A stretch of DNA of 62,781 nt, taken from positions 1 to 62,781 of IMG/VR virus record IMGVR_UViG_3300017746_000009; one strand, 5' to 3'. The notes under the pieces are model-generated. The model did no database searches, had not been told where the DNA came from, and was given only the letters and a program-made list of their open reading frames with translations. The position numbers were made by a program, and so were the translations under genes. This document shows positions 3,037 through 35,731 of this stretch, in pieces (positions within the stretch are counted from its first letter, which is position 1; each line of letters starts with the position of its first letter). This DNA is from a virus.

Positions 3037-3107
3037 ATCGACTCCTTAATTTAAAACTATACTTTAGTTTACTTCTAAAACAAAATAAATATATGATCTT
3101 ATTATTG

Positions 3108-3506
3108 TTAAGTGTTTTTACACCTGTCTCGGAGCTCTGTAGAAGAAAAACTGTGCCTTCTTTTATTAAAGTAACATTTATCTTTAGAAAGTTCTTTACC
3201 TGTGAAATCAATATTTTTGTATTCTTCACCAATAATTCTAATGTCCCATGGATAACTGTCAAGTATATGAATAACATCTTCTTCTGTATCATAGACAAAA
3301 GTTTTATCAACAAACCTACAAGCATCGATTTGAATCTGTCTTTCTAAAATATTTTGCACAGGAGCATTTTTTTCAGGTCTGTCTATACTTGGGTCGGTTT
3401 GTATAAAAACTGTTAGATGATCACATGCATTATATGCTTCTTCTAACATCAATACATGACCTGCATGAAATAAATCAAAGGTTCCAAAAGTAATGCCTTT
3501 AATCAT
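3108..3506 (-). CDS. cytidylyltransferase-family nucleotidyltransferase (TagD / glycerol-3-phosphate cytidylyltransferase-like)
   Basis: GITFGTFDLFHAGHVLMLEEA carries the (H/T)xGH nucleotidyltransferase motif. The 132-aa size is typical of the family. Confidence 0.8.
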   Translation of the reverse strand: MIKGITFGTFDLFHAGHVLMLEEAYNACDHLTVFIQTDPSIDRPEKNAPVQNILERQIQIDACRFVDKTFVYDTEEDVIHILDSYPWDIRIIGEEYKNIDFTGKELSKDKCYFNKRRHSFSSTELRDRCKNT

Positions 3507-4218
3507 CTTTAGGAGCTTTTAACCAAAACACAAGTAAATATCTATCGCCTTCACCTACAGCTAGACCACGGTGCAGGTGCGTAAAACTAGGGAAAAATAA
3601 AGCGTGACCACGAGGTAGAGGGTCAACAGTACCACGATTAAAAAACTCTGTGCCACCGCCTTCATAGTCACCAGTATTTAATGGGACAACGACGCTTATA
3701 TCTGCACTTGCGTCATGATGCCAAGCTCCCTGTTTTTTATTCTCTAAATTGTAGTTTGCTATCTGTATACTACTGGCTGTTTCAGCAAACCTTTGCCAGA
3801 CTGACATAAAAATAGGGTTCATTATATTAAAAACCACGCCAAGCATCGAGTTATATAACTCAGGGCATCTTTCCGCTAAAACTATTTCAGGTATTTGCCT
3901 TAGTTCGTCTTCTTCAAGGTTCGGTGTAAAATCAAAATGTTTTTTCATATTTTCTATTTCATCTAACATCATGTCACAAAACTCTTCGGTAAACAAACCT
4001 ACAGAATATACGTCTTTACAATGTTCTTTTGGATAATTTTGTAGGATATTCTTAATACCTTCTTTGCCGTCGCTATCTGCAAATTTTTTTATAGGTTCTT
4101 TTGCGTCTTTAACTAAAGTAAGAGTAGTCTGGTTTAACATCCACTCAGCCCTAATCGTAAGTAAAAAGTTTTTAACTAAATACGGTGGGGTTGTAGGGCT
4201 ATCCATTATACGGTCCAC
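3499..4218 (-). CDS. 2OG-Fe(II) oxygenase superfamily protein (prolyl-hydroxylase-like)
   Basis: An HxD...H...R pattern is seen: WHHDASADISVVVPLN, GGGTEFF, FFPSFTHLHRGLAVGEGDRYLLVFW. Confidence 0.75.
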   Translation of the reverse strand: MDRIMDSPTTPPYLVKNFLLTIRAEWMLNQTTLTLVKDAKEPIKKFADSDGKEGIKNILQNYPKEHCKDVYSVGLFTEEFCDMMLDEIENMKKHFDFTPNLEEDELRQIPEIVLAERCPELYNSMLGVVFNIMNPIFMSVWQRFAETASSIQIANYNLENKKQGAWHHDASADISVVVPLNTGDYEGGGTEFFNRGTVDPLPRGHALFFPSFTHLHRGLAVGEGDRYLLVFWLKAPKDD

Positions 4219-4285
4219 CAGTTTTTCATAGGGTTATAGGGGGTTAGTACCTTTTTATAAAGAAAAAAGGTCCAAGGGGCTGCAT

Positions 4286-4888
4286 TTAAGTGATAATTTT
4301 TGCGTATCCACATTTTATATCGTATTTTATATCAGCTTGAGTCAAACCCATATATAATGTTTTATGGGTAAGGACAGATACTTTACTACCGTCATAATGT
4401 TCTTGACGTTTTTTATTTTTTTCTGATTTAGGTATTTTATCTGTTTTTAAAATCTTAGCGTCAGGGCTAAGTATTATGTTATCTCTTTCTTTAGTCACTA
4501 CTTTTTTTGGTTTAGGTTTAGATTTAGGTACAGTTGTATCCCCTAGTTTATGTTCTAAAAAGCTGTTTGAGTAGTCTTCTTCCTTAACTTCTCTAGCTAG
4601 TGGTAACAAAAGTTTCCACAATAATAAAAGCTCTTTCTTTTCACTAACTTTTTCACTGATATCTATTTTAGTTTTTTTACTTTTATTGTACAGATCGTGA
4701 AGCATAAGCATTTTATCTGGTGTTAGCCAAGGGGGACGACTAATATCACTAGGGTCTCTAAACACAGCTGAGCCACCTTTAAGTCTACCAACGTGATATG
4801 AATCTGTTCTGACAATGTTTTTGTAATTTACACCTTGCGGTGTGTCTGCTAAAAATACTATAGCATCTATTTTATTATAAGGTTCCAT
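4286..4888 (-). CDS. hypothetical protein with a Lys-rich linker and a C-terminal DIKYD..G motif shared with 59233-59457 and 61284-61592
   Basis: KSKPKPKKVVTKERD linker; the C-terminus is HYDGSKVSVLTHKTLYMGLTQADIKYDIKCGYAKIIT. Confidence 0.6.
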   Translation of the reverse strand: MEPYNKIDAIVFLADTPQGVNYKNIVRTDSYHVGRLKGGSAVFRDPSDISRPPWLTPDKMLMLHDLYNKSKKTKIDISEKVSEKKELLLLWKLLLPLAREVKEEDYSNSFLEHKLGDTTVPKSKPKPKKVVTKERDNIILSPDAKILKTDKIPKSEKNKKRQEHYDGSKVSVLTHKTLYMGLTQADIKYDIKCGYAKIIT

Positions 4889-4934
4889 AGTTTAAACTCT
4901 AATAAACATGTAAGTGTAAGTAAATGATTGGTCG

Positions 4935-4975
4935 AAAAAATGCCTGCTGGGTATCGAAACGGTCAACCCAGCAGG
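4935..4975 (-). terminator. Rho-independent terminator after the DUF932 gene
   Basis: A 10-bp perfect stem pairs cctgctgggt (4943-4952) with acccagcagg (4966-4975) around a 13-nt loop. On the minus strand it is followed by CA + TTTTTT (4935-4940). Confidence 0.7.
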
Positions 4976-4987
4976 ACTTTGAGGTAT

Positions 4988-6016
4988 CTATGCTACGTTT
5001 GCGTATTCAATAGCTTTGTCCACAGCTTTTTGTTTTAAGCTGGCACGACCACCAAACCATGCGTTATGTAGCGAAGCGTCACGGTCATAACCCCACTTAT
5101 GATCGACTACAAAAGTAACAGCATTCATAGCCCCCCACCAAGTACCTTTAGAGGATTTAAGGTTAGCTCCTGGTTGCTCTTCTAGAGCTTGGTGAACCAT
5201 AGACGGTATGCGTTTAAACTCATCAACCATTGACTGACGAGTAGCTATCGCACGTATGTCGCTCATTTTTTCTATCTCAGCTTGAGCAGTTAAAAGCTCT
5301 GGTTGAAATAAATCTGCTATGTAGTTAACTACGCTGTCAGAGTTATACTGTTTTGTACTGAGAAACTCAGCACTCTCCTTAAACTCATCCATTTTATTAC
5401 TAGCTAACCCTAGTGCTTCTTCTGCAGCAAAAAATACTTCTGTATCTAATGCTTTAGTATGAGGCATTTTAAAGGAGTTAGCAGTTTTAGTGCTAAGAGC
5501 CATAGTCAAAGTGTTATTACAAACCACACGTATAGGTGTGAACCTTATCTCATTAGATTTACCCCACTTATGCGAGATACTTACTAATAAGTAACCTAGT
5601 ACACGGTCATCTCCTGGAAGCGTAAAGTCTTCGCTAATATTAGCTAAACCCCACACCTGCTCGCCACCTTTTAGTGACCCAGCAGTTTCCATTTTCATAT
5701 GCCCTGCGTCAGTGAATTTTTTGAAAAACTCAAAAGCATCACCGTTTTGGCTAGGTATAAACCTCGGACCACACGGACCAAAGGTTTTGTTATCGCTATC
5801 ACGAACCAAGACAGAGTAGTTGTCTACTGCTACTAAATCATTAGAAGCGTTTATGTCTGGTTCAGCGTGAGTGAATAGTTGTCTTTTACTTACTGTCCAA
5901 TCAAGTCCAGCAGCAACAACCATCTCCTGCGGTGTGAGAGTATCGTCTACTTTTACACCGAGACCGTGCCAGGGAACTTCCCCAGCGTAAGCCATTGTTT
6001 CTACAGCATCTGCCAT
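4988..6016 (-). CDS. DUF932-family (phage/plasmid-like) protein
   Basis: The N-terminus MAYAGEVPWHGLGVKVDD..T..EM..AAGLDWTVSKRQLF and the roughly 340-aa length match my memory of DUF932 proteins. Confidence 0.6.
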   Translation of the reverse strand: MADAVETMAYAGEVPWHGLGVKVDDTLTPQEMVVAAGLDWTVSKRQLFTHAEPDINASNDLVAVDNYSVLVRDSDNKTFGPCGPRFIPSQNGDAFEFFKKFTDAGHMKMETAGSLKGGEQVWGLANISEDFTLPGDDRVLGYLLVSISHKWGKSNEIRFTPIRVVCNNTLTMALSTKTANSFKMPHTKALDTEVFFAAEEALGLASNKMDEFKESAEFLSTKQYNSDSVVNYIADLFQPELLTAQAEIEKMSDIRAIATRQSMVDEFKRIPSMVHQALEEQPGANLKSSKGTWWGAMNAVTFVVDHKWGYDRDASLHNAWFGGRASLKQKAVDKAIEYANVA

Positions 6017-6098
6017 ATTTATCTCCGTTATGTATTGGTTTAATTACCTAATACTGATATTAGTTTAAATTAACCACTAAAAGATAATAGTTATGTTG

Positions 6099-6497
6099 CT
6101 AAAGATTATTAACAACAAGGGCAAGCCAATCTTCAAACTTTATAACAGCAGTTTTTAAATTATTACCTTTATATAAAGTAGGGTTTAAGTAATACATCGG
6201 TACACATACTCTTATTGGTTGATGATTATATTTCCATATAAGTATAGGTGTTGTATCACCACACGACTTAATTACCTGCTCCCACCAAGAATCTTTATAC
6301 CAGTTGCCATCTGCGTACCTTTTACATTCAATAGTGTGTTTAGGTAGTTGTAGGTCTCCTTGATCTTTTACTTGGTATTGTTCTAAATTTCTTCTTACAG
6401 TTATATCAATATCTTCTTTTTCAAACAATGTATTCAAGTGTTTAGCAACTTCTCTTTCAAAAGATGCGCCTTTGTTTCTAGAATTTATTTTACCCAT
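6099..6497 (-). CDS. PD-(D/E)XK endonuclease, Holliday-junction-resolvase-like
   Basis: NKGASFEREVAKHL followed by GDLQL...IECK gives a D...E-x-K arrangement, as in Hjc/RecU-like resolvases. Confidence 0.5.
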   Translation of the reverse strand: MGKINSRNKGASFEREVAKHLNTLFEKEDIDITVRRNLEQYQVKDQGDLQLPKHTIECKRYADGNWYKDSWWEQVIKSCGDTTPILIWKYNHQPIRVCVPMYYLNPTLYKGNNLKTAVIKFEDWLALVVNNL

Positions 6498-6807
6498 GAA
6501 CGACTTTATTATTTTTTATTGTTCTAATGTTTTTTAGTTTGAGCCATTCTCTAAGTCTATAGTTTGCTGACTTTCTATCTTGTGTCTCATCAAGAAAACT
6601 TCTATAAACTTTGTTGTACTCAGCTAAACCTCTATAATAATCACCATTACCTAATTTACAAAAACGTATAATTTGCCAAACTCTTTGTTTTGTAATCCCA
6701 TACTGCATACCTATATCTTCTAAAGTTAGGTCAGTGTTGTTATATGTCATAAAGACATTAAAGTACAGCTTTTTTAAATCAGTTCTAGAGCTCATTGAAA
6801 TATTCAT
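6490..6807 (-). CDS. stand-alone sigma-70 region-4-like HTH protein
   Basis: LTLEDIGMQYGITKQRVWQIIRF closely resembles region 4.2 (TLEEIG..FGVTRERIRQIE). Regions 2 and 3 are absent. Confidence 0.5.
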   Translation of the reverse strand: MNISMSSRTDLKKLYFNVFMTYNNTDLTLEDIGMQYGITKQRVWQIIRFCKLGNGDYYRGLAEYNKVYRSFLDETQDRKSANYRLREWLKLKNIRTIKNNKVVHG

Positions 6808-8665
6808 TATAGTGTCTTATGTCCCCCCAATTTTTACCTATTTCTCCATCTACCTTATTAGGAACTTTTAATTCAACACAGTCTTTCATAATTTCCATAA
6901 CTTTTTCACACTCAGGTTTGTCAGTAACAGATATGTTAAGTTCATCATGTACTTGTGTGTGAGAAAGTATGCCCTCTTTGTGTAATTCTAACATAGCTTT
7001 TTTAGTCATGTCTGCTGCTGACCCTTGTATCAAACGGTTCATAGCTTTGTATGTGTAGGCTCTTTTTAATTTACCGCCATATTCATCCATAGCTTTTTCC
7101 ATAGGCAAAGGTAGAGCTCTTTTATCTATAGGCTCATATAAATTAAACCTACACTTACGACCTAAAATTGTTTTTACATAACCTCTATTAGCCCCCATAC
7201 GTGCGGCAGAGTCTCTTAGACCACGGATAAAAGGTACTCTTTCATGATATTGATTAAAAAGCGATTCAGCTTCTTCCACACTGATACCTAGTTGAGAAGT
7301 CAATTTATCCTTACCCATACCATAACTAAGCCCAAGGTTTATAATCTTAGCCTCTTTACGACTTATATTAGCCATGTCTGCTACTATCTGGTGAAAGTCA
7401 GCGTCGTCATCTTCATACTCAAGTGCTGCTTCTTCTGCCCCTTCTTGATGTGTAAGTAAAGAATAGTGTACTGTAAGTCTAGGTTCTTGTTGAGAATAAT
7501 CAAAACAACCCCAATGCTGTCCTTCTTCTGGTATAAATACACTTCGTATGAGTGGACCAATTATAGGGTCACGTGCAGGGACTTGTTGTAAATTAGGGTT
7601 AGAACAACTAAACCTACCCGTTACTGTACCACCGTCATCAGACTTTAAAGGGTGAAGTTCTCCATGTATTCTACCGTCTACTAAATGACCTAATATCATT
7701 TTATCTATGAATGTAGTTCTAGCTTTATTTAATTTTCTTGCTTTAGCTACAGCTATTGGTAATTTATGCTCATGACCTTCTAACCAAGAAGCAACAAAAC
7801 TAGGTGCATCTGTTTTAGGTGTCCTAGGATACGCAAGACCTGCTCTATCAAACACTTGCGATAATGATTGTGCTGCCCATAGGTCAGGTTCTACTCCGTA
7901 CCAATCTTTTATTTGTTTTACTATTTTATTTTCTTCAGTAAGTAATTGTTTTTTAACTTGTTGTGCTCTGTCTGTATCAATTAAAACACCACGCATACGC
8001 ATATCGATTAGCACGGGTAAGACAGAACTTTCAAGCTCATATATCTCACTCACTTCTTCTTTTACTATACCTTCCTTTAATATTTGCCAGAGCCTGTATG
8101 TTAAGTCTGCATCTTGTTCACAATAAGGACCAACATACTCAGGTGCAAGTTTATACATTTCAGATTTAGGATCAATCCCAAATATTTGTGCAGCTTCTTT
8201 AAGTAAAGACTCATCTTTCTCTTCGTTTAGGTATCGCTTACCTACTCTATTAAGAGAATAGCCATACTCGTTTTCATTTAACAAAGGTGCAGCTATAGAT
8301 GTGTCGTGTATTTTACCGTTTATCGTAAAGCCTTCTCGTTTAAGCCAACCTACGTCATACTGTGCGTTATGAAATATTTTACTATTAGAAGCGTCGAGTT
8401 GTTTTTGTAGCCAACGATAGACTACAGATTTATCTAAATTTGCACCTGTGTCATGAGCTACAGGAAAATAACCTTTCCAACCATCAGTTGCTATACCTAT
8501 ACCTATTATGTGTCCTCTGTCTTTTGCTGCCCAACCTGGACCATGAGTCATGAGCCAAGGGTCACAGGTTTCTAAATCAATCGCTATCTCTTTCTGTTGA
8601 GTTAGGTCAGGGAAAGTAGCGGGAGGAACCCAATCACTTTCTGGATGGAAAAAAGTTAATTGCAT
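6785..8665 (-). CDS. family A DNA polymerase with 3'-5' exonuclease domain
   Basis: Exo motifs IAIDLET, HNAQYDVGWL and YCEQDADLT. Pol motif A is FDYSQQEPR, motif B is RKEAKIINLGLSYGMG, and motif C is HTQVHDELN. Confidence 0.95.
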   Translation of the reverse strand: MQLTFFHPESDWVPPATFPDLTQQKEIAIDLETCDPWLMTHGPGWAAKDRGHIIGIGIATDGWKGYFPVAHDTGANLDKSVVYRWLQKQLDASNSKIFHNAQYDVGWLKREGFTINGKIHDTSIAAPLLNENEYGYSLNRVGKRYLNEEKDESLLKEAAQIFGIDPKSEMYKLAPEYVGPYCEQDADLTYRLWQILKEGIVKEEVSEIYELESSVLPVLIDMRMRGVLIDTDRAQQVKKQLLTEENKIVKQIKDWYGVEPDLWAAQSLSQVFDRAGLAYPRTPKTDAPSFVASWLEGHEHKLPIAVAKARKLNKARTTFIDKMILGHLVDGRIHGELHPLKSDDGGTVTGRFSCSNPNLQQVPARDPIIGPLIRSVFIPEEGQHWGCFDYSQQEPRLTVHYSLLTHQEGAEEAALEYEDDDADFHQIVADMANISRKEAKIINLGLSYGMGKDKLTSQLGISVEEAESLFNQYHERVPFIRGLRDSAARMGANRGYVKTILGRKCRFNLYEPIDKRALPLPMEKAMDEYGGKLKRAYTYKAMNRLIQGSAADMTKKAMLELHKEGILSHTQVHDELNISVTDKPECEKVMEIMKDCVELKVPNKVDGEIGKNWGDIRHYNEYFNEL

Positions 8666-9366
8666 TATACAGCAGATTCCCTACACATATTTTGTTTACC
8701 GAAATAACACCACTTACAGCCAAACGTGCTTGGTTTAGCAGGAAACTCTTCAGCTGTTGTCATAGCCACAGCTCTTGCATTTATTCTCTTTTGTTTTATT
8801 TCTATTGTTTTAGGTGTATAGATATAACGGTCTATTTTACCATGGTCTAAATACCACATCTCAGTAGTTATTCTTTCTAGTTCAGGATAACGACTCAAAG
8901 CTACAGCTCCGTAAAGCTCACACTGTTCTCTATGACTTTCTTGATTACCGTCATACCTACCTGTTTTAAAATCTATTACTCTAGCTTCTTTTGATTCACC
9001 TTCTTCGTATACAAAAGCATCTACTTTTGCTCGCCCCCAAGTATCATCTTCGAACCAGCCTGTTTTATTCCAATCTTTATCTATAGCCCAATCACTTTCG
9101 CAAAGCACATGACCATATAAATACATTTCTCTTAATAAGTTAAAAGCGTCTTCAAAGTCTTGTATTTGTTTAGGCATCTCTTCTAGGGTGCCTCTAATAT
9201 AGTCTTCACACATTTTATGTATTTCTTTACCCCTATCCATTGCTGGGCTTCCTGGCTCTTTTATCTTTTTAATAAATTTAAACTCAGCTTGTTTAGGACA
9301 TTTTTCGTAACAAGTTAGCCTACTGTAAGACCATTGATATATCATTACATCCTCCTTGACAACCAT
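8665..9366 (-). CDS. Cas4/RecB-like PD-(D/E)XK exonuclease with a 4-Cys cluster
   Basis: An N-terminal Cys (CYEKCPKQ), VIDFKTG, QCELYGAVAL and a C-terminal CKWCYFGKQNMC motif are present. Confidence 0.8.
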   Translation of the reverse strand: MVVKEDVMIYQWSYSRLTCYEKCPKQAEFKFIKKIKEPGSPAMDRGKEIHKMCEDYIRGTLEEMPKQIQDFEDAFNLLREMYLYGHVLCESDWAIDKDWNKTGWFEDDTWGRAKVDAFVYEEGESKEARVIDFKTGRYDGNQESHREQCELYGAVALSRYPELERITTEMWYLDHGKIDRYIYTPKTIEIKQKRINARAVAMTTAEEFPAKPSTFGCKWCYFGKQNMCRESAV

Positions 9367-10355
9367 TCATAGCAGGCTTTACGCCAATCACTTGCGGCAC
9401 AGTTTTGTATTTCAATCATAGCTTCTTCTGTTTCTCCCATTTTATGTAAACGAAAGGCATCCTGCATAGGTGCTGCCACCTCTGTAAAGAATTTATCATA
9501 AAACTTACAATCTTTAAAAGGTTCTCTTTCCATAAAAATATCTAAGTCTCTTTCCCATTCATTTATTTCTGTATCGTTAAACATACTGTATGGGGTTACT
9601 TTACCTTTTTCGTAAGGATTACCCACCATAGGATATTTTATACTATAAAAATCTAGTGCGTCTTTATCATTGAGTTTTTTTAGCAACTTTCTAAAAATAT
9701 CAACATAAGCATGGTAATTATTACTCACTTGATAGTATCTTCCTACAGGTCTACCGATAGCGTAGGCAATATATTCTTGCAGCATTGACATATGTACAGC
9801 ATTAGCACCATACGCTCCCCAAATAATATCATTCGATCTATTACTTACACTCATCTCTAAACGACCTGTGCAGTCTTCACTAAAGTATATACTTGTATTA
9901 CAAGGTACATCTTTACCATCTCTGTTTAAATCTTCGTTAGCGTCCCACATTTGAAGTACACATCTTCTATCTTCTGGCTCTTTTTTAAGCCTATTGATTA
10001 TTATTTGTAGTTGGTCTTTACCGAAATAACTACGCCATCTCCAACCGTATGCTCCCCATAAAGTTTCACCGTCATCGCTGTAGTTTTTCATGTTTTTAGC
10101 ATATCTTTTTACAAACTCTAAATCATTACGACCAGTTAGCATCCACAAACCTTCCATAAAATGAAAGAAAGGGTTAGCATCTCTTTCTTCCCAAAATAAA
10201 ACTCTTTCTTTAGGTTTTTCATAAACTGTAGTAACAGGAGTTTTAGACCTGTAAACTTCTCCGTTTCTTGTTTGCTCTCTAAAGTTTTCTGCCTCTAATA
10301 AATCTACACCACGTATCAACGCATCATGTACGTTTCTTACTTCAAGAACTTGCAT
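9345..10355 (-). CDS. thymidylate-synthase-superfamily enzyme (ThyA-like; candidate dUMP hydroxymethylase)
   Basis: It aligns by eye to E. coli ThyA: [14 protein letters not shown] ~ [37 protein letters not shown] ~ [34 protein letters not shown] ~ APCHAFFQF (catalytic Cys); [15 protein letters not shown] ~ QRSCDVFLGLPFNIAS. Confidence 0.8.
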   Translation of the reverse strand: [336 protein letters not shown]

Positions 10356-11124
10356 TTTCTACCCCCTCTTTGTAAGCTTTTTTCCAACCCACTATTACGT
10401 CTTTACGAGGCAAACCATTCCAAGCTGTTTTAGTTTGCTTCTCTACTACTTTTACACAAGTTGGATGCAGATCAGCTAACAACTGTGCACCCTCATTATG
10501 AACATCAATAGTACGCCATTCACTACAACCGCCCTTAGCATTAGAACTTTTTTGACCCTGAGCATAGTAATAACTTACCTTACAAGCTTTGCCTTTTTTT
10601 AAAAGTTGTAAAGACATATCAAAGTCTTCCATGATTTTAGTTCTACCCCATTCGATATTATCAGGAAAAGCATCTAAGTTATAAGCGAGCACTCGCATGT
10701 AACGAGTATTATCTACAGATAAATCTTCTACTCTGTTATTACCCTCCCTAGCACTAATACCACAATGAGCATAACCTTGTTTCATCCACTCTTCTAATAA
10801 ACCAAACATAGCAGGATACTCTTCTTTTTCTAGATAACGTAAATGCCAGTCTGTAGGACTTTTACGAATGTAAAAACGCAAGTCATCATCAAGCATAATT
10901 ATATGTGGGTCGTCTGTATTATCTACAATATACTTACGTTTAGGACCAATACCTACACAATCTTCTGGTACTACCATCTTAGCTTGGTCATCGTGATAAA
11001 ATTTATATTTATCTTCTTCATCTTTATCTATCACCAAAACCACTTTCTTTTTAAGTTCTTCAGGAAAAAAACTTAAAGTGACTTGGTCAAAGGGTCTGCC
11101 CCTAGTTGGAATATATATCTTCAC
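10342..11124 (-). CDS. GT-A-fold glycosyltransferase-like protein
   Basis: MKIYIPTRGR..Q.T at the N-terminus (Rossmann beta1) and a DxD-type motif IIMLDDDLRF; the position is inside the base-modification cluster. Confidence 0.45.
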   Translation of the reverse strand: MKIYIPTRGRPFDQVTLSFFPEELKKKVVLVIDKDEEDKYKFYHDDQAKMVVPEDCVGIGPKRKYIVDNTDDPHIIMLDDDLRFYIRKSPTDWHLRYLEKEEYPAMFGLLEEWMKQGYAHCGISAREGNNRVEDLSVDNTRYMRVLAYNLDAFPDNIEWGRTKIMEDFDMSLQLLKKGKACKVSYYYAQGQKSSNAKGGCSEWRTIDVHNEGAQLLADLHPTCVKVVEKQTKTAWNGLPRKDVIVGWKKAYKEGVENASS

Positions 11125-11447
11125 GCTTCGTATTCCTCTTCTATACCTGTTTCATACGGTTCTGGTTTAGCTGTCATGTATTCTTCTACAAGTAGAAGGT
11201 ATCTTCTTAAGTCTCGTATGTCATCTAGTATACCAGAAGCACTAGGATCATTAGAAATAGCAGTAAAAATATCGTAACCCACCTTAGTAGATTGGTTTTC
11301 TATTCTATCCCACTTACGAGCTAGCATCATAAATGCTCCTACTCCTCCTCTTTTTTTCCAGCTGTCTCCGTAGGTTGTTTCCGCTACTTCTAACGCTTTT
11401 ACATCGGCATCTGTCAACGTAATCATTTTATTAAATTTATCAGTCAT
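11121..11447 (-). CDS. small all-alpha MazG-like / DUF1599-like nucleotide-metabolism protein
   Basis: TYGDSWKKRGGVGAFMMLARKWDRIEN resembles the YGDSW..RG..G....L.RK.DRL signature of DUF1599/MazG-related phage proteins. Confidence 0.45.
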   Translation of the reverse strand: MTDKFNKMITLTDADVKALEVAETTYGDSWKKRGGVGAFMMLARKWDRIENQSTKVGYDIFTAISNDPSASGILDDIRDLRRYLLLVEEYMTAKPEPYETGIEEEYEA

Positions 11448-11980
11448 TATATTCCTCCATATTGTTTAATTAATTGACCTAAAAGTAACGAGCCACGTTC
11501 GTTAAGTCTTTGACTCGCTAAAAATTCTACACCCTTACTAAATACTTTATTCATATTTGTATTACCCATCCTTCTTTGTTTCATACAGAAAAATAAAAGT
11601 TCAAACATGTCTGCTTGTTTATAAAGTATTTTTTCTTCATCAGAAATAATATTGTACTGATCTATACCTAAGACTTGTTCATACTCTTCTTCTACTTTAT
11701 TTAATATTTCTTTAAACTCTGGATGAGACCATTTTATAGGTGAGGGCATATCACCTGTATATGCTTCAGTAACGTCATGAGTAAGAGCTTTCATAATTAA
11801 ATCTTTACTTACGTTAGGTTCTAGATATTCTAAGATAATTGCTACACCCCAAGAATGAGAAGCAATAGATTGTTCACCTATCGTATCTAATGTGTGGTAT
11901 CGTTTTACAACGCCACAGTCCATTATTTCAAATATACTATCTATCATATTTATACTTTGCTCTTGGTCTACCTTGACCAA
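11447..11980 (-). CDS. HD-domain phosphohydrolase (YfbR-like 5'-deoxynucleotidase)
   Basis: SIASHSWGVAIIL and LTHDVTEAYTGDMPSPIK match the H...HD...D pattern and the YfbR segment HD.SE..TGD.PTP.K. Confidence 0.8.
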   Translation of the reverse strand: MVKVDQEQSINMIDSIFEIMDCGVVKRYHTLDTIGEQSIASHSWGVAIILEYLEPNVSKDLIMKALTHDVTEAYTGDMPSPIKWSHPEFKEILNKVEEEYEQVLGIDQYNIISDEEKILYKQADMFELLFFCMKQRRMGNTNMNKVFSKGVEFLASQRLNERGSLLLGQLIKQYGGI

Positions 11981-12782
11981 GTCTTACTCTTTCATATTTA
12001 TCAAACTCACACAAACAGTGCTCAATATCTCTCATTTCTAAAGAAGGTACATGAGGCTCTAGATATTTAGGGCTTTCAGATAATAAATCTTTCATCTCAC
12101 AGTTCCACCCTATGTAACCTACGTGTCCTCTAGTAGGACGCCAAGTTAGTTCTCTACCGTGTATTCTATTTAGCCCACGTTTAGCTCCTGGACCTGGATT
12201 AGCCCAAGTATAGATATCACGAGCGTTGCCTAAATATTTTGTATGACGTAAGTCTGTAACTACTTCATATGCCATAAAACCACTAAACCCAGCGTACCGT
12301 AAGTATCCAGACCAAGTTTTTTGTAAACTATCGGGATGTATCTCAGGTTGATTCTCATAAAGTGGTGTAAGTATTTTATCAATAGTTTGTTCTACTTTTG
12401 TACCACCTAACGTACCTGTTAACATGTAAGCACCTGTGTAAACTTTTTCTCCTTTATCCATTCTACCTTGCATAATAGCTTTGACACGGTCAGGGTTCCA
12501 CTCTTCAGGGAAACCAATCTCTTGTAAAGTGTCTGGCCAATTTATTTGTCTAGCTACCGACATAGCAAACGGTAGATTAGGGTGGTCAGCATAAGGTTCT
12601 TTCCAGTTTTTCCTTAACCATATGGTGACGCTATCTAGTTCACGAAATACATTACAGAAACTAAACTCTTTGATTATAGGGTCTTCTGTCCAAGGGGCTT
12701 GTATACCTGCTTGCCTACGACAATATATTTGATGCCTTTCATTTATATATTTAAAAAATCCATCTATTTGTTCAAGAACCAT
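11937..12782 (-). CDS. alpha-glutamyl/putrescinyl-thymine pyrophosphorylase (aGPT-Pplase)-like DNA base hypermodification protein
   Basis: FFKYINERHQIYCRRQAGIQAPWTEDPIIKEFSFCNVFRELDSVTIW and the later NPGPGAKRGLNRI match my memory of the helical 5-hmdU-hypermodification family. No Walker A motif is present. Confidence 0.6.
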   Translation of the reverse strand: MVLEQIDGFFKYINERHQIYCRRQAGIQAPWTEDPIIKEFSFCNVFRELDSVTIWLRKNWKEPYADHPNLPFAMSVARQINWPDTLQEIGFPEEWNPDRVKAIMQGRMDKGEKVYTGAYMLTGTLGGTKVEQTIDKILTPLYENQPEIHPDSLQKTWSGYLRYAGFSGFMAYEVVTDLRHTKYLGNARDIYTWANPGPGAKRGLNRIHGRELTWRPTRGHVGYIGWNCEMKDLLSESPKYLEPHVPSLEMRDIEHCLCEFDKYERVRLGQGRPRAKYKYDR

Positions 12783-13234
12783 TGTGGTACCTCCCTTTTA
12801 GTCCATGTAGCAAACCTGCTTTTTTCACCCATGTAATACCTACGATACGCAGTAATTGGGTCATTAGTGACTTTATACTCATCTGGCATACATTGAGGAA
12901 GTTGTTGTAATCCTTTACTTCTTATAAGCGGAGGACATAGCTCGTCTACTACGTCTATCGAACGATGAGGTAAGTTTCTATCATACCTCCAGCAAAATTC
13001 TTCATTTAAACAAATAGCTAATTGTTTTAACCATAGCCAATTATCAAGGCTGTCTCCAGCCCATAGAGTACAAGGGTGTTTAGCGTGTACAGGTAAATAT
13101 GGAGCGGTTTGACCATTTGACCAAAGCACAGTACATAACATTTGAGTAGACTCTAGTATCATTTTTGATACATGTTTATCGCAGTGCTGTTGAGCACAGT
13201 CTTCTACAGTTTCGTCTAGTTTAAATATATTCAC
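12764..13234 (-). CDS. conserved hypothetical protein inside the modification cluster (GTG start)
   Basis: ORF beginning GTG AAT ATA TTT; the motif CAQQHCDKHVSKMILESTQML is one I have seen in phage and giant-virus proteins of unclear function. Confidence 0.6.
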   Translation of the reverse strand: MNIFKLDETVEDCAQQHCDKHVSKMILESTQMLCTVLWSNGQTAPYLPVHAKHPCTLWAGDSLDNWLWLKQLAICLNEEFCWRYDRNLPHRSIDVVDELCPPLIRSKGLQQLPQCMPDEYKVTNDPITAYRRYYMGEKSRFATWTKREVPQWFLNK

Positions 13235-13241
13235 GTTAATA

Positions 13242-13291
13242 TTTTACTTTACTTGTAAAGTAAAAGTATAGGAATATTGGCAAAATTGCAA
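13242..13291 (-). promoter_or_regulatory. Promoter-like element TTGCAA-N15-TATACT followed by a perfect 11-bp inverted repeat (operator or 5'-hairpin)
   Basis: On the minus strand: TTGCAA (13291-13286), TATACT (13270-13265), then ttttactttac-aa-gtaaagtaaaa, i.e. arms 13242-13252 and 13255-13265 with a 2-nt spacer, ahead of the GTG at 13234. Confidence 0.35.
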
Positions 13292-13873
13292 TCATATACC
13301 CGTTCTAAAGGTTAAGTTTACTCGCTGACCACCGCCAACTACGTTGAGCACCGAATGGGTAGCCTTCATTTGTGAATGTCCATCAAATATAAAAGCATCG
13401 CCATCTTCCATTAAATAATTAGTTAGTTCTTTCTTAGCTATGTAGTGAGTATTAATCATACTTGTAGAAGTTTCTTTTTTAATATGTCTTCTATATTCTT
13501 GCCACTGAAATATTCTAGGAGACCAAAAAGATATAGAAACAACTAAATCATCTAGTGTGGGTACGGTGTCAGAATGATGCGGTATACCCACACCATCTTC
13601 AGCATAATAACCACACAACAAAAAATTAAACTCAACGTGTCTGCCCAGCTCTTTTAAAACTAACTTTTCTGCTTTTATCTTAAATGTTTTTATATGCTCG
13701 TTCCACGGTTTAGGTTTATATAACCTACCTGCATAATTAAAATCAGAATCACCATACGCTTGAGTGTACCTACCTTTAATTTTTTTACCATCGTATATTC
13801 TATTAACAGGTTCTTCCCACTCTACTATGTGGGGGCAATCTCCAGCAAAAGCTCCTTTAATAAATTTAATCAT
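13292..13873 (-). CDS. AlkB-like 2OG-Fe(II) dioxygenase
   Basis: GIPHHSDTV (HxD), KATHSV (distal His) and the C-terminal RVNLTFRTG, matching RYNLTFRQ of E. coli AlkB. Confidence 0.75.
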   Translation of the reverse strand: MIKFIKGAFAGDCPHIVEWEEPVNRIYDGKKIKGRYTQAYGDSDFNYAGRLYKPKPWNEHIKTFKIKAEKLVLKELGRHVEFNFLLCGYYAEDGVGIPHHSDTVPTLDDLVVSISFWSPRIFQWQEYRRHIKKETSTSMINTHYIAKKELTNYLMEDGDAFIFDGHSQMKATHSVLNVVGGGQRVNLTFRTGI

Positions 13874-15363
13874 GAAAACAAAAACTCCTTTCTAGTTTTT
13901 CCTCGCACTATATGTAGATTACTCTTAGTTCTAGTGACACCCACATAAAATGCTCTACATTCGTTATCAGGGTTCATATACAAGTCTTCCCATGTTTTAT
14001 TAGCTAAGTCTGTAAGCAACACTACGTTTTCAGATTCACCACCCTTTGCTGCATGTATTGTATTGAGCTTAATTTTTGATACGTCTAGTTTTTCTCCTTT
14101 ACGTAAACAAGAGATAAGATATTCTCTTTGTGTATTACCTATAAGATCAAAACACTCGTGCCATATTTTATCTACCATTAAACCATGGTGTTTAGTAAGT
14201 TCTTCTATATTTAATATTGTATCTTCCCTTACTGTTTTAAGGGTTTTATATCCTGTTTTTACTCCCTTACCTGCTTTCATATACCCGTATATCTTTTTTA
14301 TTCTTTCCGCCTCCATAGACTCTCCTTTTCGTAATGCTTCCCAATCTTTTATTGCATTAATTAAATTTTGAGACACAGAAGGTTTGTTATTCTTTTGGTA
14401 AACCCTACCGTTTAGTTTTAGATATTCTTCTACACCATTTAACAGGTAATTGTTTCTGGCTAAAAATAACCATTCACCTTGATCAATATCTACGTGTTCA
14501 TAATTAGTGTGATAAGTTACACTGCCTTCTTCTACTTTAGGTTCCCAAACTTTTTCTTTTCTATTACTTATACGTTTTACGACACCTAAAGCTGTATCGT
14601 GTACTTTTCTAGGCACACGGTAAGATTGTTTTAAATAAGTAGTTTTACCATTAAGTTTTATAAATTGATCTACGTCTGCTCCTGCCCACCTATAGATAGC
14701 TTGGTCATCATCTCCTGCTATGTAAACATGTTTTACATCTTTTGCTAGTTTTTCTACACACTTCCACTGAAGCGTAGATAAATCTTGAGCTTCATCGACT
14801 ATCAAAACGTCTAAACTAGGTGATCCGCTTGTATTAATAAACATTTCTAGCATGTCTGTGTAGTCTATTAAAAAATTAGCGTCTTTGTATTTAGAATAGT
14901 TTTTGATAAACCAATTGTAGTGCATCCAAGATATATCAAACCCAGAATAGTTCCACTGTTCTTTATAGCCTACACATTTATTACGAGCCATATTTTCTAG
15001 GAACAGCATATTGTCCCCCTTACTATTAAGCGACATTAAGTTTTCACCATCCCAAGCTGAGTTAATTCTTTCTCCTATTGTTTTACTAAACTCTCTTAAA
15101 TTTGTCCTAGACATAACATCTGTTCTATTTAAACCTAACCAATGATAACACAATGAGTGAAGAGTTCTAAAGTAATTTAATTCTTTAGGGTCATAACCAA
15201 ACTTCTCTACAGCCCGAGTAAGTGCTTCGTTTGCAGCTTTCTTAGTAAAAGCTACATAACCTATTTTATTCGGCTGTATGCCAGAATCTAAAAATTCTTC
15301 TGACTTATTCAGTAAATAAGTAGTCTTACCAGTGCCAGGAGGACCAAGGACAATATTCCACAT
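13870..15363 (-). CDS. UvrD/PcrA-type superfamily 1 DNA helicase
   Basis: Walker A is GPPGTGKTTYLL and Walker B is LIVDEAQDLS; also present are IAGDDDQAIYRWAGA, QSYRVP, TIHAAKGGESENVVLL and YVGVTRTK. Confidence 0.85.
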   Translation of the reverse strand: MWNIVLGPPGTGKTTYLLNKSEEFLDSGIQPNKIGYVAFTKKAANEALTRAVEKFGYDPKELNYFRTLHSLCYHWLGLNRTDVMSRTNLREFSKTIGERINSAWDGENLMSLNSKGDNMLFLENMARNKCVGYKEQWNYSGFDISWMHYNWFIKNYSKYKDANFLIDYTDMLEMFINTSGSPSLDVLIVDEAQDLSTLQWKCVEKLAKDVKHVYIAGDDDQAIYRWAGADVDQFIKLNGKTTYLKQSYRVPRKVHDTALGVVKRISNRKEKVWEPKVEEGSVTYHTNYEHVDIDQGEWLFLARNNYLLNGVEEYLKLNGRVYQKNNKPSVSQNLINAIKDWEALRKGESMEAERIKKIYGYMKAGKGVKTGYKTLKTVREDTILNIEELTKHHGLMVDKIWHECFDLIGNTQREYLISCLRKGEKLDVSKIKLNTIHAAKGGESENVVLLTDLANKTWEDLYMNPDNECRAFYVGVTRTKSNLHIVRGKTRKEFLFS

Positions 15364-35700: not shown

Positions 35701-35731
35701 ACAATCACCAAAGAATATTGTAACTCATAAT

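What the first reader, a model, noticed from the sequence alone, without database searches (positions are those of the whole stretch)
9345..13873. Thymidine-hypermodification-type gene cluster lacking a recognisable 5-hmdU DNA kinase but containing glycosyltransferase-like and AlkB-like genes
The contiguous genes, in order, encode the following. First, an AlkB-like dioxygenase (HxD, RVNLTFR). Second, an unknown 156-aa protein with its own promoter/operator-like element. Third, an aGPT-Pplase-like helical protein (ERHQIY..R.AG...PWTEDPII.EF.FCNVFRELD, GPGAKRGL). Fourth, a YfbR-like HD 5'-deoxynucleotidase. Fifth, a MazG/DUF1599-like protein, followed by a GT-A-like protein (LDDDL). Last, a thymidylate-synthase-superfamily enzyme that keeps the catalytic Cys and, by my alignment, the Asn that specifies uracil. 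Computational work by Iyer, Aravind and colleagues and biochemical work by Lee, Weigele and colleagues characterised phages that replace T with 5-hmdU and then decorate it. Their hallmarks are a TS-like dUMP hydroxymethylase, dNTP/dNMP-clearing hydrolases and an aGPT-Pplase. The post-replicative step normally needs a P-loop 5-hmdU DNA kinase to activate the hydroxymethyl group, plus tailoring enzymes (PLP, radical SAM and others). I cannot recognise any of these anywhere in this complete genome. Instead, a glycosyltransferase-like gene and a dioxygenase sit in the cluster. This suggests either an undescribed route or product, such as glycosylated or otherwise substituted 5-hmdU, or a new activating enzyme among the unknown ORFs.
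Basis: partly seen in the sequence, partly recalled or inferred. Interest (0 to 1): 0.8.

Follow-up and report, generated by a model that had tools for sequence, protein, structure and literature searches.

The report
Kinase-less thymine-modification cluster with glycosyltransferase
An abundant type of ocean phage carries genes that most likely replace thymine with 5-hydroxymethyluracil and then attach a sugar to it, a route that lacks the kinase used by the known thymine-hypermodifying phages; the gene set has been noted in print before, but its chemical product has never been measured.

Summary
The TS-like enzyme has hydroxymethylase hallmarks and uracil specificity. The "aGPT-Pplase-like" protein is the uncharacterised clade-1 / HMUDK_hel paralogue, the counterpart of M6 gp55. 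The GT is a TAGT-family GT-A enzyme. The HD protein is YfbR-like, and the dioxygenase is a true AlkB (ALKBH3-like).

No 5-hmdU DNA kinase, clade-2 transferase, PLP or radical-SAM enzyme is detectable anywhere in this complete, circular 62.66-kb genome.

The MazG/DUF1599 call for the 108-aa protein could not be confirmed.

The genome is an HTVC023P-type pelagiphage relative. Its TS + PPlase1 + deoxynucleotidase + GT set was already annotated by Wittmers et al. 2022, and the cultured phage PhiJL001 has the same kinase-less layout.

Across about 140 related loci, gp55-like and TS-like genes form a core, and the slot beside them holds a glycosyltransferase (TAGT, or an unrelated GT-B). Only 1 of the 77 loci found through gp55-like had a kinase module.

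Best reading: 5-hmdU is incorporated before replication and O-glycosylated afterwards, giving a base-J-like product. AlkB is an accessory repair gene.

The product is unproven, and PhiJL001 DNA is reported to be cut normally by restriction enzymes. I rate this a new variant of a known kind, of moderate interest.

The parts
13292..13873 (-). AlkB-family 2OG/Fe(II) dioxygenase (ALKBH3-like). Probably an accessory nucleic-acid dealkylation repair enzyme, not a core pathway member.
   Evidence: PF13532 at 3.5e-12. Best PDB match is ALKBH3 at 1.6e-7, with HxD...H and RVNLTFR aligned. It is present in only about 27 of 66 TAGT-anchored loci and at different positions.
13235..13291 (-). Intergenic region upstream of the 156-aa gene: TTGCAA-15-TATACT promoter-like site and a perfect palindrome TACTTTAC-nn-GTAAAGTA (13245-13262).
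   Evidence: Sequence read. The promoter scan is not above chance, and the palindrome is not repeated above chance.
12764..13234 (-). 156-aa protein of phage family phrog_624 ('DNA binding protein'), with a weak T4-endonuclease-V-like (Pyr_excise) N-terminus. Role unknown.
   Evidence: phrog_624 at 6.9e-48. Pyr_excise at 0.002, 18.9 bits, below the cut-off of 23. No PDB sequence match. Conserved next to the gp55-like gene in most relatives at 37-83% identity.
11937..12782 (-). gp55-like protein (aGPT-Pplase clade 1 / Pfam HMUDK_hel): an all-helical, HhH-glycosylase-like relative of the amino-acid:DNA transferases. It keeps an E254-H255-x-x-C258 motif resembling their catalytic E-T-x-x-C.
   Evidence: PF18723 at 6.6e-46. 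42-44% identical to M6 gp55 and its relatives. AF2 pLDDT 86.5. The top three Foldseek PDB hits are PaMx11 gp46/PUGT, with E 0.11-0.83 and TM 0.35-0.41, followed by Ogg glycosylases. The motif is conserved in family alignments. hhalign picks the motif, but not significantly.
11447..11980 (-). HD-domain YfbR-like 5'-deoxynucleotidase, for nucleotide-pool editing.
   Evidence: PF12917 at 9.8e-18. NF003009 at 2e-11, below its cut-off. Homologue of M6 gp59 and PhiJL001 gp25. In relatives that lack it, a trimeric dUTPase (PF00692, about 1e-30) occupies the same slot.
11121..11447 (-). 108-aa, very highly conserved helical protein of unknown family.
   Evidence: No Pfam, PHROG or NCBIfam hit. 37 invariant positions in 25 homologues. 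More than 4500 homologues, none with a Pfam domain among the 120 listed. AF2 pLDDT 70, four helices. Foldseek not significant; the highest TM, 0.46, is to the AF1178 pyrophosphatase.
10342..11124 (-). TAGT-family GT-A glycosyltransferase, predicted to glycosylate DNA.
   Evidence: PF20691 at 1.7e-23. phrog_842 at 2.9e-54. DDD motif in the sequence. 42% identical to PhiJL001 gp22 and distantly related to the T2/T6-type beta-glucosyl-HMC-alpha-glucosyltransferase.
9345..10355 (-). Thymidylate-synthase-superfamily enzyme, predicted dUMP 5-hydroxymethylase.
   Evidence: 48-51% identical to M6 gp58, the Bordetella phage enzymes and PhiJL001 gp24. Best PDB match is MilA CMP hydroxymethylase at 3e-20, against 1e-13 to 1e-8 for TS. 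Asp149 sits at Cys-3 like T4 dCH Asp145; Asn185 sits at the specificity site; the TS residues Trp80/Trp83 are not conserved (with PMC6400193). All NCBIfam TS equivalog scores fall far below their cut-offs.
8665..9366 (-). PD-(D/E)XK exonuclease, a constant downstream neighbour of the TS-like gene. It belongs to the replication/recombination module and is not assigned to the modification pathway.
   Evidence: PF12705 at 3.1e-18. Follows TS in nearly all related loci.
3108..3506 (-). Small adenylyl/cytidylyltransferase (RfaE domain II / TagD-like). A candidate maker of a nucleotide-activated donor. Its link to the cluster is inferred only.
   Evidence: PF01467 at 9.3e-11. TIGR02199 at 5e-14 and TIGR01518 at 2e-13, both below their equivalog cut-offs; TIGR00125 is above its cut-off. 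Present in at least 43 of 66 TAGT loci, and in many it abuts the 108-aa gene and PolA.

Best explanation
The cluster is a kinase-independent variant of phage thymidine modification, inserted between the helicase and PolA genes of an HTVC023P-type pelagiphage.

Step 1 (supported by sequence): the TS-like enzyme hydroxymethylates dUMP to 5-hm-dUMP.

Step 2 (inferred): host kinases make 5-hm-dUTP. The HD 5'-deoxynucleotidase (a dUTPase in sister genomes), and perhaps the conserved 108-aa protein, bias the pools so that the phage PolA incorporates 5-hmdU in place of T.

Step 3 (inferred from family and context): after replication, the TAGT-family GT-A enzyme transfers a sugar from a nucleotide-sugar onto the 5-hydroxymethyl group in DNA. 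The product is a base-J-like glycosyl-5-hmdU. The donor is unknown; it could be UDP-hexose, or a product of the conserved RfaE-II/TagD-like nucleotidyltransferase.

Step 4 (open): the gp55-like / aGPT-Pplase1 protein is a constant partner of the hydroxymethylase, whichever tailoring module is present. It keeps a Glu/His...Cys motif like the catalytic E-T-x-x-C of the amino-acid:DNA transferases. It therefore most likely flips out a 5-substituted uracil and acts on it by Cys-C6 addition. Its reaction is unknown.

The AlkB-like gene is an accessory repair enzyme.
For: Hydroxymethylase rather than TS, and uracil rather than cytosine:
- Closest to the M6, Bordetella-phage and PhiJL001 enzymes.
- MilA outscores every TS in the PDB.
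- Asp at Cys-3, Asn185 at the specificity site, and loss of TS Trp80/83 (residue roles from PMC6400193).
- All TS equivalog cut-offs are failed.
- In sister loci a dUTPase, which makes dUMP, replaces the HD gene.

GT acting on DNA:
- TAGT and phrog_842 membership, and homology to the T2/T6-type beta-glucosyl-HMC-alpha-glucosyltransferase.
- The order gp55-like, then TAGT, then TS is kept in 66 loci even when other genes move.

Glycosylation is the selected function:
- Of 77 loci found through gp55-like, 60 have TS + TAGT with no kinase or Pplase2, and only 1 has kinase + Pplase2.
- Of the nine loci with TS but no TAGT, kinase or Pplase2, five were examined. In three of them (L127, L137, L145) the neighbouring gene is an unrelated GT-B glycosyltransferase. 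Some also carry an FkbM methyltransferase or a radical-SAM/SPASM enzyme.

Kinase truly absent. It is also absent from all 66 TAGT loci and from the whole PhiJL001 genome.

The module is an insertion relative to the cultured HTVC023P and to 023Pt_psg01.

gp55-like relates to the transferases: Foldseek top hits and a conserved motif.

Literature: GT-A enzymes co-occur with ThyS about as often as with 5mYOX (bioRxiv 10.1101/2023.12.21.572611). T4 beta-GT can glucosylate 5hmU (PMC4111573).
Against: - No chemical data exist for this phage or for any relative.
- PhiJL001, the cultured phage with the same gene set, is reported to have DNA 'normally digested by restriction enzymes' (PMC4276943, citing the 2005 genome paper). 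This argues against dense bulky modification, at least there.
- The TAGT acceptor cannot be read from sequence. Characterised relatives act on 5hmC or glucosyl-5hmC.
- The hydroxymethylase-versus-TS call rests on alignment and on homology to enzymes that are themselves mostly inferred.
- The gp55-like link to the transferases is weak: TM 0.35-0.41, Foldseek E at or above 0.1, hhalign not significant.
- The role of the 108-aa protein is unknown.
- No dCMP deaminase or other obvious dUMP supply was found in the window.
Confidence: 0.55

Rival explanations
1. A T-even-like cytosine route: the TS-like enzyme is a dCMP hydroxymethylase and TAGT glucosylates 5-hmdC.
For: Characterised members of the TAGT family and its T2/T6-type relative act on 5hmC or glucosyl-5hmC (bioRxiv 10.1101/2023.12.21.572611). 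The best PDB match of the TS-like protein is a cytidylate hydroxymethylase, MilA.
Against: The specificity position is Asn185, as in TS and the dUMP enzymes. MilA and T4 gp42 have Asp there. The nearest homologues are in M6-like phages, whose DNA carries 5-hmdU-derived bases (PMC5889632). No dCTPase was found. Sister loci carry a dUTPase, which feeds dUMP. The gp55-like partner otherwise occurs only in thymidine-modifying phages.
Confidence: 0.07
2. No DNA hypermodification: the TS-like protein is an ordinary (divergent) thymidylate synthase or makes only 5-hmdU, and the GT acts on something other than DNA (host envelope, protein or a small molecule). The gp55-like protein would be a DNA-repair-type HhH protein.
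For: PhiJL001 DNA is reported to be digested normally by restriction enzymes (PMC4276943). Pelagiphages carry several other GTs and many AMGs (PMC9599517). No acceptor can be assigned from sequence.
Against: The hydroxymethylase hallmarks are present and all TS equivalog cut-offs are failed. TAGT/phrog_842 is a phage DNA-GT family. The GT sits strictly between gp55-like and TS inside the replication module in more than 60 genomes, and in other genomes a non-homologous GT takes its place next to gp55-like.
Confidence: 0.13
3. The canonical activation-substitution chemistry is kept but with a cryptic activator. An unrecognised enzyme would activate the 5-hydroxymethyl group, and gp55-like would then install a non-sugar or additional substituent, with the GT decorating it further. 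Candidate activators are the 108-aa protein, the 156-aa protein and the RfaE-II/TagD-like nucleotidyltransferase.
For: gp55-like keeps an E-H-x-x-C motif like the catalytic E-T-x-x-C of the clade-2 transferases, and its best structural matches are those enzymes. The 108-aa protein and the nucleotidyltransferase are conserved with the cluster and are unexplained.
Against: No kinase-like fold or motif was detected. HIGH-motif nucleotidyltransferases normally act on phosphate acceptors, not alcohols (general knowledge). M6 gp55 was dispensable for the transferase chemistry in vitro (PMC8989533). The repeated pairing with glycosyltransferases of two different folds is explained more simply by direct glycosylation, which needs no activation.
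Confidence: 0.15

Closest known systems
M6/YuA/PaMx11/ViI/PhiW-14 thymidine hypermodification (dUMP hydroxymethylase, then 5-HMUDK kinase, then clade-2 aGPT-Pplase/AADT, then PLP/rSAM/FAD tailoring; Lee et al. 2018, 2022)
   Same: It shares orthologous TS-like hydroxymethylase (48% identity), HD deoxynucleotidase and gp55-type paralogue (42%). They lie in the same order next to a related PolA.
   Different: It has no kinase, clade-2 transferase, PLP or rSAM enzyme. A TAGT glycosyltransferase occupies the tailoring position.
HTVC023P-type pelagiphage 'partner AMGs' (Wittmers et al. 2022, PMC9599517) and phage PhiJL001 (AY576273)
   Same: [quoted passage not shown] The window also carries the T8SS curli/FecR/cyclase block. 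PolA is 47-51% identical to HTVC023P, HTVC027P and 023Pt_psg01. PhiJL001 gp19, gp22, gp24 and gp25 are homologues.
   Different: Those reports are annotations only. They did not note the absence of the kinase and clade-2 transferase, did not separate clade 1 from clade 2, and determined no product. The cultured HTVC023P lacks the module.
T-even phage 5-hmC glucosylation (gp42 dCMP hydroxymethylase + alpha/beta-GT; the T2/T6-type beta-glucosyl-HMC-alpha-GT)
   Same: The logic is the same: a TS-superfamily hydroxymethylase acts before replication and a glycosyltransferase acts on the hydroxymethyl group after it. TAGT is distantly homologous to the T2/T6-type enzyme.
   Different: The pyrimidine is predicted to be uracil, not cytosine (Asn185 versus Asp179). 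There is no dCTPase, and there is an additional Pplase1-type partner.
Base J synthesis in kinetoplastids (JBP1/2 thymidine hydroxylase + JGT)
   Same: The predicted end product class is the same: O-glycosylated 5-hydroxymethyluracil in DNA.
   Different: Here 5-hmU would be made at the nucleotide level by a TS-like enzyme, not by a TET/JBP dioxygenase on DNA. The only cluster dioxygenase is AlkB-type. The GT family also differs.
Phage 5mYOX (TET/JBP) + GT biosynthetic clusters (Pyle et al. bioRxiv 2023; T-dioxygenases, PNAS 2026, PMC13229309)
   Same: They use the same TAGT/GT-A type of DNA glycosyltransferase. Those studies also infer glycosylated 5hmU in phages and note that GT-A enzymes are frequently next to ThyS.
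   Different: No 5mYOX or methyltransferase is present here. The hydroxymethyl group comes from the pre-replicative route, and the aGPT-Pplase1 partner is not part of those clusters.

Membership tests
Canonical thymidine hypermodification pathway (M6/ViI/PhiW-14 type) | TS-superfamily dUMP hydroxymethylase | tested here: met
   48% identical to M6 gp58. Cys152, Asp149 at Cys-3 and Asn185 are present. MilA scores above every TS. All TS equivalog cut-offs are failed. Activity itself was not assayed.
Canonical thymidine hypermodification pathway (M6/ViI/PhiW-14 type) | P-loop 5-hmdU DNA kinase (5-HMUDK) | tested here: not met
   phmmer --max with M6 gp54 against the six-frame translation gave E above 0.4. 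There is no N-terminal Walker A anywhere. Pfam scans of every ORF of 40 aa or more found no kinase; the junction ORF was checked only for a Walker A motif. The M6 kinase was absent from the 66 TAGT loci; the M6, Pam3 and MW2 kinases hit only 1 of the 77 gp55-like loci and nothing in PhiJL001.
Canonical thymidine hypermodification pathway (M6/ViI/PhiW-14 type) | Clade-2 aGPT-Pplase / amino-acid:DNA transferase with DxDP...ERRHxR...E-T-x-x-C | tested here: not met
   M6 gp51 has no homologue in the window, and six clade-2 queries found only 1 of the 77 gp55-like loci and nothing in PhiJL001. Only the distant clade-1 paralogue is present.
aGPT-Pplase clade 1 / HMUDK_hel (PF18723) | Full-length match above Pfam's gathering score; orthology to M6 gp55 / Pam3 gp50 | tested here: met
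   157.4 bits against a cut-off of 25, covering residues 6-268. 42-48% identical to M6 gp55. Aligns with Pam3_50, which is annotated as aGPT-Pplase1.
Amino-acid:DNA transferase mechanism (Cys-C6 covalent catalysis with a metal-binding Glu/Thr) | Catalytic Cys and a neighbouring Glu in an equivalent structural position | tested here: inconclusive
   The E254-H255-x-x-C258 motif is conserved and resembles E243-T244-x-x-C247 of PaMx11 gp46 (PMC11472151). hhalign picks it but at E 0.28. Foldseek ranks 8Z2N/8Z2M first, but with TM of only 0.35-0.41. Residue-level superposition was not possible.
TAGT glycosyltransferase (PF20691) | Profile match above the gathering score; GT-A DxD motif | tested here: met
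   84.1 bits against a cut-off of 27.5, covering residues 1-199. 'MLDDDL' is in the sequence. phrog_842 at 2.9e-54.
TAGT glycosyltransferase (PF20691) | Genomic association with a TET/JBP (5mYOX) dioxygenase | tested here: not met
   No TET/JBP domain was found in the genome. The three 2OG oxygenases are AlkB-, OGFOD2/P4H- and 2OG-FeII_Oxy_3-type.
Thymidylate synthase ThyA | Equivalog-level profile score; TS-specific Trp80/Trp83, Leu143 and C-terminus | tested here: not met
   The best NCBIfam TS score is 78 bits against a cut-off of 174.55; the others score 23-60 bits against cut-offs of 108-427.
T-even dCMP hydroxymethylase route | Asp at the base-specificity position (T4 Asp179) | tested here: not met
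   Asn185 aligns with the MilA Asp and with E. coli TS Asn177. The loop has a one-residue insertion, so the assignment rests on two independent alignments.
AlkB family (PF13532) | HxD...H iron triad and RxNxTFR 2OG-binding motif; profile above cut-off | tested here: met
   47.4 bits against a cut-off of 31.2. The alignment to ALKBH3 shows HSD, H and RVNLTFR.
MazG / DUF1599 all-alpha NTP pyrophosphohydrolase (claimed for the 108-aa protein) | Profile match or MazG-like four-helix fold with metal-binding acidic motifs | tested here: inconclusive
   None of 25 homologues hit Pfam. The model has pLDDT 70. Foldseek gave no significant match; the best TM, 0.46, is to the AF1178 pyrophosphatase at E 7.5.
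Base J type product (glycosyl-5-hmU in DNA) | Detection of the modified nucleoside | not testable with these tools
   Needs LC-MS/MS of virion DNA.

The most novel reading that the evidence does not exclude
The aGPT-Pplase1/HMUDK_hel protein is a kinase-independent enzyme acting on 5-hmdU in DNA. It would work with the adjacent glycosyltransferase, for example using the glycoside or the unactivated hydroxymethyl group as the leaving group for Cys-C6 chemistry, or restoring T at selected sites. On this reading, the ocean's most abundant pelagiphage lineages would carry a base-J-like or further-derivatised thymine made by chemistry not yet described.
Probability: 0.2. Interest if true: 0.8.

Novelty: new variant of a known kind. 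Interest (0 to 1): 0.55.

Why it matters
If the prediction holds, a base-J-like glycosylated thymine would be made by a pre-replicative TS-type route. It would occur in HTVC023P-type pelagiphages, which are among the most abundant viruses in the sea, and in relatives such as PhiJL001.

That would affect three things:
- how marine viromes are sequenced and quantified, because modified T influences library preparation, nanopore calling and restriction-based methods;
- our understanding of phage counter-defence in SAR11-type hosts;
- the function of the aGPT-Pplase1/HMUDK_hel family, which has stayed unassigned since 2013 even though it accompanies every M6-type cluster.

The comparative pattern found here is a gp55-like + hydroxymethylase core beside interchangeable tailoring cassettes: kinase/transferase, GT-A, or GT-B with or without a methyltransferase or rSAM enzyme. 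That pattern gives a concrete experimental handle on the family.

Tried and rejected
- blastn of the cluster against 50,697 phage records found no DNA-level match.
- phmmer of gp55-like, TAGT and the 156-aa protein against PDB sequences found nothing usable.
- Profile-profile comparison of the gp55-like family with clade-2 Pplases gave only non-significant but collinear local matches.
- The 108-aa protein was tested with Pfam, PHROGs, NCBIfam, a 25-member Pfam scan, a 4515-member homologue search, an AF2 model and Foldseek. No family could be assigned.
- I considered that AlkB might substitute for a TET/JBP hydroxylase. I rejected this because it is ALKBH3-like, variably present and mobile within the module.
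- I considered that the palindrome upstream of the 156-aa gene might be a recurring operator. It is not repeated above chance, and promoter-like sites in the region are fewer than in shuffles.
- I looked for a hidden kinase across the circular junction. The junction ORF has no Walker A motif; it was not scanned against a profile library.
- The Iyer et al. 2013 paper (PMC3763556), which defines these families, was not available in the library. Statements about its family definitions therefore rest on later papers and on Pfam names.

Full report
WHAT THE WINDOW IS

The window is a complete circular phage genome. Bases 1-123 repeat exactly at 62659-62781, so the unique length is 62,658 bp. G+C is about 35%, and almost every gene is on the minus strand.

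Its PolA is 47-51% identical to those of Pelagibacter phages HTVC023P and HTVC027P and the environmental genome 023Pt_psg01. It carries the curli/T8SS block (CHASE2-cyclase, FecR, CsgG, CsgF) and the Cpn10 gene described for HTVC023P-type pelagiphages (PMC9599517).

In the cultured HTVC023P and in 023Pt_psg01, the helicase gene is followed almost directly by PolA. In the window, the studied cluster plus an exonuclease gene sits between the helicase (13870-15363) and PolA (6785-8665). The cluster is therefore a lineage-specific insertion in the replication module.

CHECK OF THE OBSERVATION

All seven ORFs are present as described. The profile searches gave the following.
- 13292-13873: AlkB family. 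PF13532 at 3.5e-12. The best solved relative is human ALKBH3 at 1.6e-7, with the HxD...H triad and RVNLTFR aligned.
- 12764-13234: phage family phrog_624 at 6.9e-48, with only a sub-threshold resemblance to T4 endonuclease V (Pyr_excise at 0.002).
- 11937-12782: PF18723 'HMUDK_hel' at 6.6e-46.
- 11447-11980: YfbR-like HD 5'-deoxynucleotidase at 9.8e-18.
- 11121-11447: no family at all.
- 10342-11124: TAGT, PF20691 at 1.7e-23 and phrog_842 at 2.9e-54, with a DDD motif.
- 9345-10355: thymidylate-synthase superfamily at 4.2e-20 and phrog_5131 at 6e-121.

None of 25 homologues hits any Pfam model. None of the 120 best of 4515 homologues carries a Pfam domain. The AF2 model is only moderately confident (pLDDT 70). 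Foldseek gives no significant match; the highest TM-score, 0.46, is to an archaeal MazG-type pyrophosphatase and is only a hint. The protein is nonetheless extraordinarily conserved, with 37 invariant positions in 25 sequences.

IS THE KINASE REALLY MISSING?

I tested this in four ways.
- The M6 proteins gp51 (clade-2 transferase), gp52 (PLP), gp53 (radical SAM) and gp54 (5-HMUDK) have no homologue in the six-frame translation, even with HMMER's filters off. In the same search gp55, gp58 and gp59 find clear counterparts.
- A Walker-A search of all six frames finds only the UvrD-type helicase and two sites deep inside structural proteins.
- Pfam scans of every ORF of 40 aa or more found no kinase, PLP or radical-SAM domain. 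The ORF that spans the circular junction was only inspected by eye; it has no Walker A motif and was not scanned against Pfam.
- The same absence holds in 66 related metagenomic loci and in the whole genome of the cultured phage PhiJL001.

THE TS-LIKE ENZYME

Its nearest relatives, at 48-51% identity, are the enzymes of the Bordetella phages, M6/YuA and PhiJL001. M6 DNA carries a 5-hmdU-derived base (PMC5889632).

Among solved structures, the best match is the cytidylate hydroxymethylase MilA (3e-20), well ahead of any thymidylate synthase (1e-13 to 1e-8).

- The catalytic Cys152 is present.
- An Asp lies three residues before it (GKDVPC). In T4 dCMP hydroxymethylase this position is Asp145, the water-activating residue that distinguishes hydroxymethylases from TS, where it is Leu143 (PMC6400193).
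- TS Trp80 and Trp83 are lost, and the C-terminus is unrelated.
- The base-specificity position is Asn185, as in TS Asn177. T4 has Asp179 and MilA also has Asp there. The loop carries a one-residue insertion, so this assignment rests on two concordant alignments.

All seven NCBIfam thymidylate-synthase equivalog models score far below their cut-offs. I therefore read the enzyme as a dUMP hydroxymethylase. This is inference from sequence, not an assay.

THE 'aGPT-Pplase-LIKE' PROTEIN

It is the counterpart of M6 gp55 (42-48% identity), PhiJL001 gp19 and Pam3 gp50, the last of which is annotated 'aGPT-Pplase1'. This is not the characterised amino-acid:DNA transferase, which is clade 2: M6 gp51, PaMx11 gp46, ViI gp247 and PhiW-14 gp109. 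gp55 was left out of the M6 reconstitution without effect (PMC8989533), and its function is unknown.

The AF2 model is confident (pLDDT 86.5, pTM 0.78) and all-helical. Against 350,542 PDB chains, the three best Foldseek matches are the crystal structures of PaMx11 gp46/PUGT, followed by HhH 8-oxoguanine glycosylases. The scores are weak, however: E 0.11-0.83 and TM 0.35-0.41.

The family keeps a near-invariant motif, I-E254-H255-x-L-C258-E-F-D-K-Y. It resembles the clade-2 active-site motif V-E-T-x-L-C-K-W-K, in which the Glu and Thr bind the metal and the Cys attacks C6 of the base (PMC11472151, PMC13458397). hhalign selects exactly this stretch as the best local match, but without significance (E 0.28). 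A second collinear match is also non-significant.

The protein is thus a distant relative of the transferases that may share their covalent-cysteine chemistry. Membership in that enzyme class is not established.

COMPARATIVE GENOMICS

Sixty-six IMG/VR loci found through TAGT keep the order gp55-like, then TAGT, then TS-like, then exonuclease, even when other genes move. The 108-aa gene is nearly always present. The HD gene is detected in roughly a third to 40% of the loci (21 complete ORFs; 27 loci with a match to the M6 HD protein), and the AlkB gene in about 40%, at three different positions. Where the HD gene is missing, a trimeric dUTPase (PF00692, about 1e-30) occupies the same slot. This swap fits a shared role in shaping the dUMP/dUTP/dTTP pools.

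Seventy-seven loci found through gp55-like divide as follows.
- 60 have TS + TAGT with no kinase and no clade-2 transferase.
- 1 has kinase + clade-2 transferase.
- 9 have TS with none of these.
- 7 are uninformative.

I examined five of those nine loci. In three of them (L127, L137, L145) the gene next to gp55-like is a glycosyltransferase of a different fold: Glycos_transf_1 in L127 and L137, Glyco_trans_1_2 in L145. L127 also has an FkbM methyltransferase. In L147 a radical-SAM/SPASM enzyme sits beside TAGT. Replacement of one glycosyltransferase by a non-homologous one at the same position argues that glycosylation itself is the selected function. It also shows that gp55-like and the hydroxymethylase form a core to which different tailoring cassettes attach.

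A small adenylyl/cytidylyltransferase (3108-3506), most similar to RfaE domain II and TagD, is found in at least 43 of the 66 loci. In many of them it abuts the 108-aa gene and PolA. It could supply an unusual nucleotide-activated donor, but this is only a lead.

MOST LIKELY MECHANISM

The steps below differ in how well they are supported.
1. dUMP is hydroxymethylated by the TS-like enzyme. This step is sequence-supported.
2. Host kinases phosphorylate the product. Pool editing is done by the HD nucleotidase (or the dUTPase in sister genomes) and possibly the 108-aa protein. The phage PolA then incorporates 5-hmdU. This step is inferred from the M6/SPO1 paradigm.
3. TAGT O-glycosylates 5-hmdU in DNA, giving a base-J-like nucleotide. 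This step is inferred from family and context.
4. gp55-like has an as yet unknown reaction on the same base.

Direct glycosylation of an alcohol needs no prior activation, which explains the missing kinase without invoking a hidden enzyme. AlkB is best explained as an accessory repair enzyme.

I put this model at about 0.55. The rivals are a cytosine route (0.07), no DNA modification or a non-DNA GT target (0.13), and cryptic activation with gp55-like as a transferase (0.15).

EVIDENCE AGAINST, AND LIMITS

There are no chemical data. [quoted passage not shown] If that is accurate, it argues against dense bulky modification in that phage. It does not exclude partial or sequence-selective modification, and M6-type phages modify only about 30-40% of T (PMC9599517, citing PMC5889632). 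The TAGT acceptor and donor cannot be read from sequence.

The founding computational paper, Iyer et al. 2013, could not be read here.

NOVELTY

The gene set has been reported at the annotation level. Wittmers et al. [quoted passage not shown] PhiJL001 has carried the same genes in GenBank since 2005. Pyle et al. noted that GT-A enzymes lie next to ThyS about as often as next to 5mYOX (bioRxiv 10.1101/2023.12.21.572611).

Three points do not appear in the papers I could read:
- the explicit observation that these clusters lack both the kinase and the clade-2 transferase;
- the assignment of the Pplase to the uncharacterised clade 1;
- the core-plus-cassette pattern with interchangeable glycosyltransferases.

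The product remains undetermined. I therefore classify this as a new variant of a known kind, of moderate interest, with a clear experimental path.

Noticed in passing
window 1-123 and 62659-62781: There is an exact 123-bp terminal overlap, so the record is a circularised complete genome of 62,658 bp. A minus-strand ORF of about 195 aa with an 'NWGTKWN' motif spans the junction and would be missed by linear ORF calling.
   Followed up: yes
window 32179-37007: This is a type VIII secretion (curli) block inside a phage genome: a CHASE2 + class III adenylate/guanylate cyclase (32179-33939), FecR (33936-35063), a secreted Gly/Asn-rich repeat protein (34972-35700), CsgG (35732-36553) and CsgF (36504-37007). 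It matches the pelagiphage T8SS described by Wittmers et al. 2022.
   Followed up: partly
window 3108-3506: A small HIGH-motif adenylyl/cytidylyltransferase, closest to RfaE domain II and TagD but below both equivalog cut-offs. It is conserved in at least 43 of 66 TAGT loci and lies directly beside the 108-aa gene and PolA in many of them. It may make a nucleotide-activated donor for the DNA glycosyltransferase.
   Followed up: partly
window 3499-4218 and 38298-38888: Two further 2OG/Fe(II) oxygenases are present besides AlkB, one OGFOD2/prolyl-hydroxylase-like and one 2OG-FeII_Oxy_3. Their substrates are unknown. Neither is TET/JBP-like.
   Followed up: no
L011:7546-8004, L016:7364-7846, L019:7540-8001: In sister genomes that lack the HD 5'-deoxynucleotidase, a trimeric dUTPase-family gene occupies the same slot between the 108-aa gene and TAGT. 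This looks like an either/or swap of pool-editing enzymes.
   Followed up: yes
L127:10125-12169, L137:7737-8984, L145:9880-13519, L147:10938-11990: In more distant gp55-like loci, the tailoring slot holds GT-B glycosyltransferases instead of TAGT. Companions include an FkbM methyltransferase (L127), a radical-SAM/SPASM enzyme beside TAGT (L147) and an intein-containing radical-SAM protein (L145). This suggests a family of different sugar-type thymine modifications.
   Followed up: partly
window 13245-13262: A perfect 8+8 palindrome, TACTTTAC-nn-GTAAAGTA, lies immediately downstream of a TTGCAA-15-TATACT promoter-like site in the only sizeable intergenic gap of the cluster. It occurs once and is not above chance genome-wide.
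   Followed up: yes
window 51503-51952, 53564-53938, 6099-6497: The genome encodes a Cpn10/GroES co-chaperonin, a staphylococcal-nuclease-like protein and a PDDEXK_15 endonuclease. Cpn10 is a core gene of HTVC023P-type phages according to Wittmers et al.
   Followed up: no
L154 (HTVC023P) 2892-6862 and L153 (023Pt_psg01) 3470-7251: The cultured HTVC023P and 023Pt_psg01 have the helicase gene followed almost directly by PolA. The AlkB-to-TS stretch together with the exonuclease gene (about 5.2 kb) is therefore an insertion at that junction in the window's lineage.
   Followed up: yes
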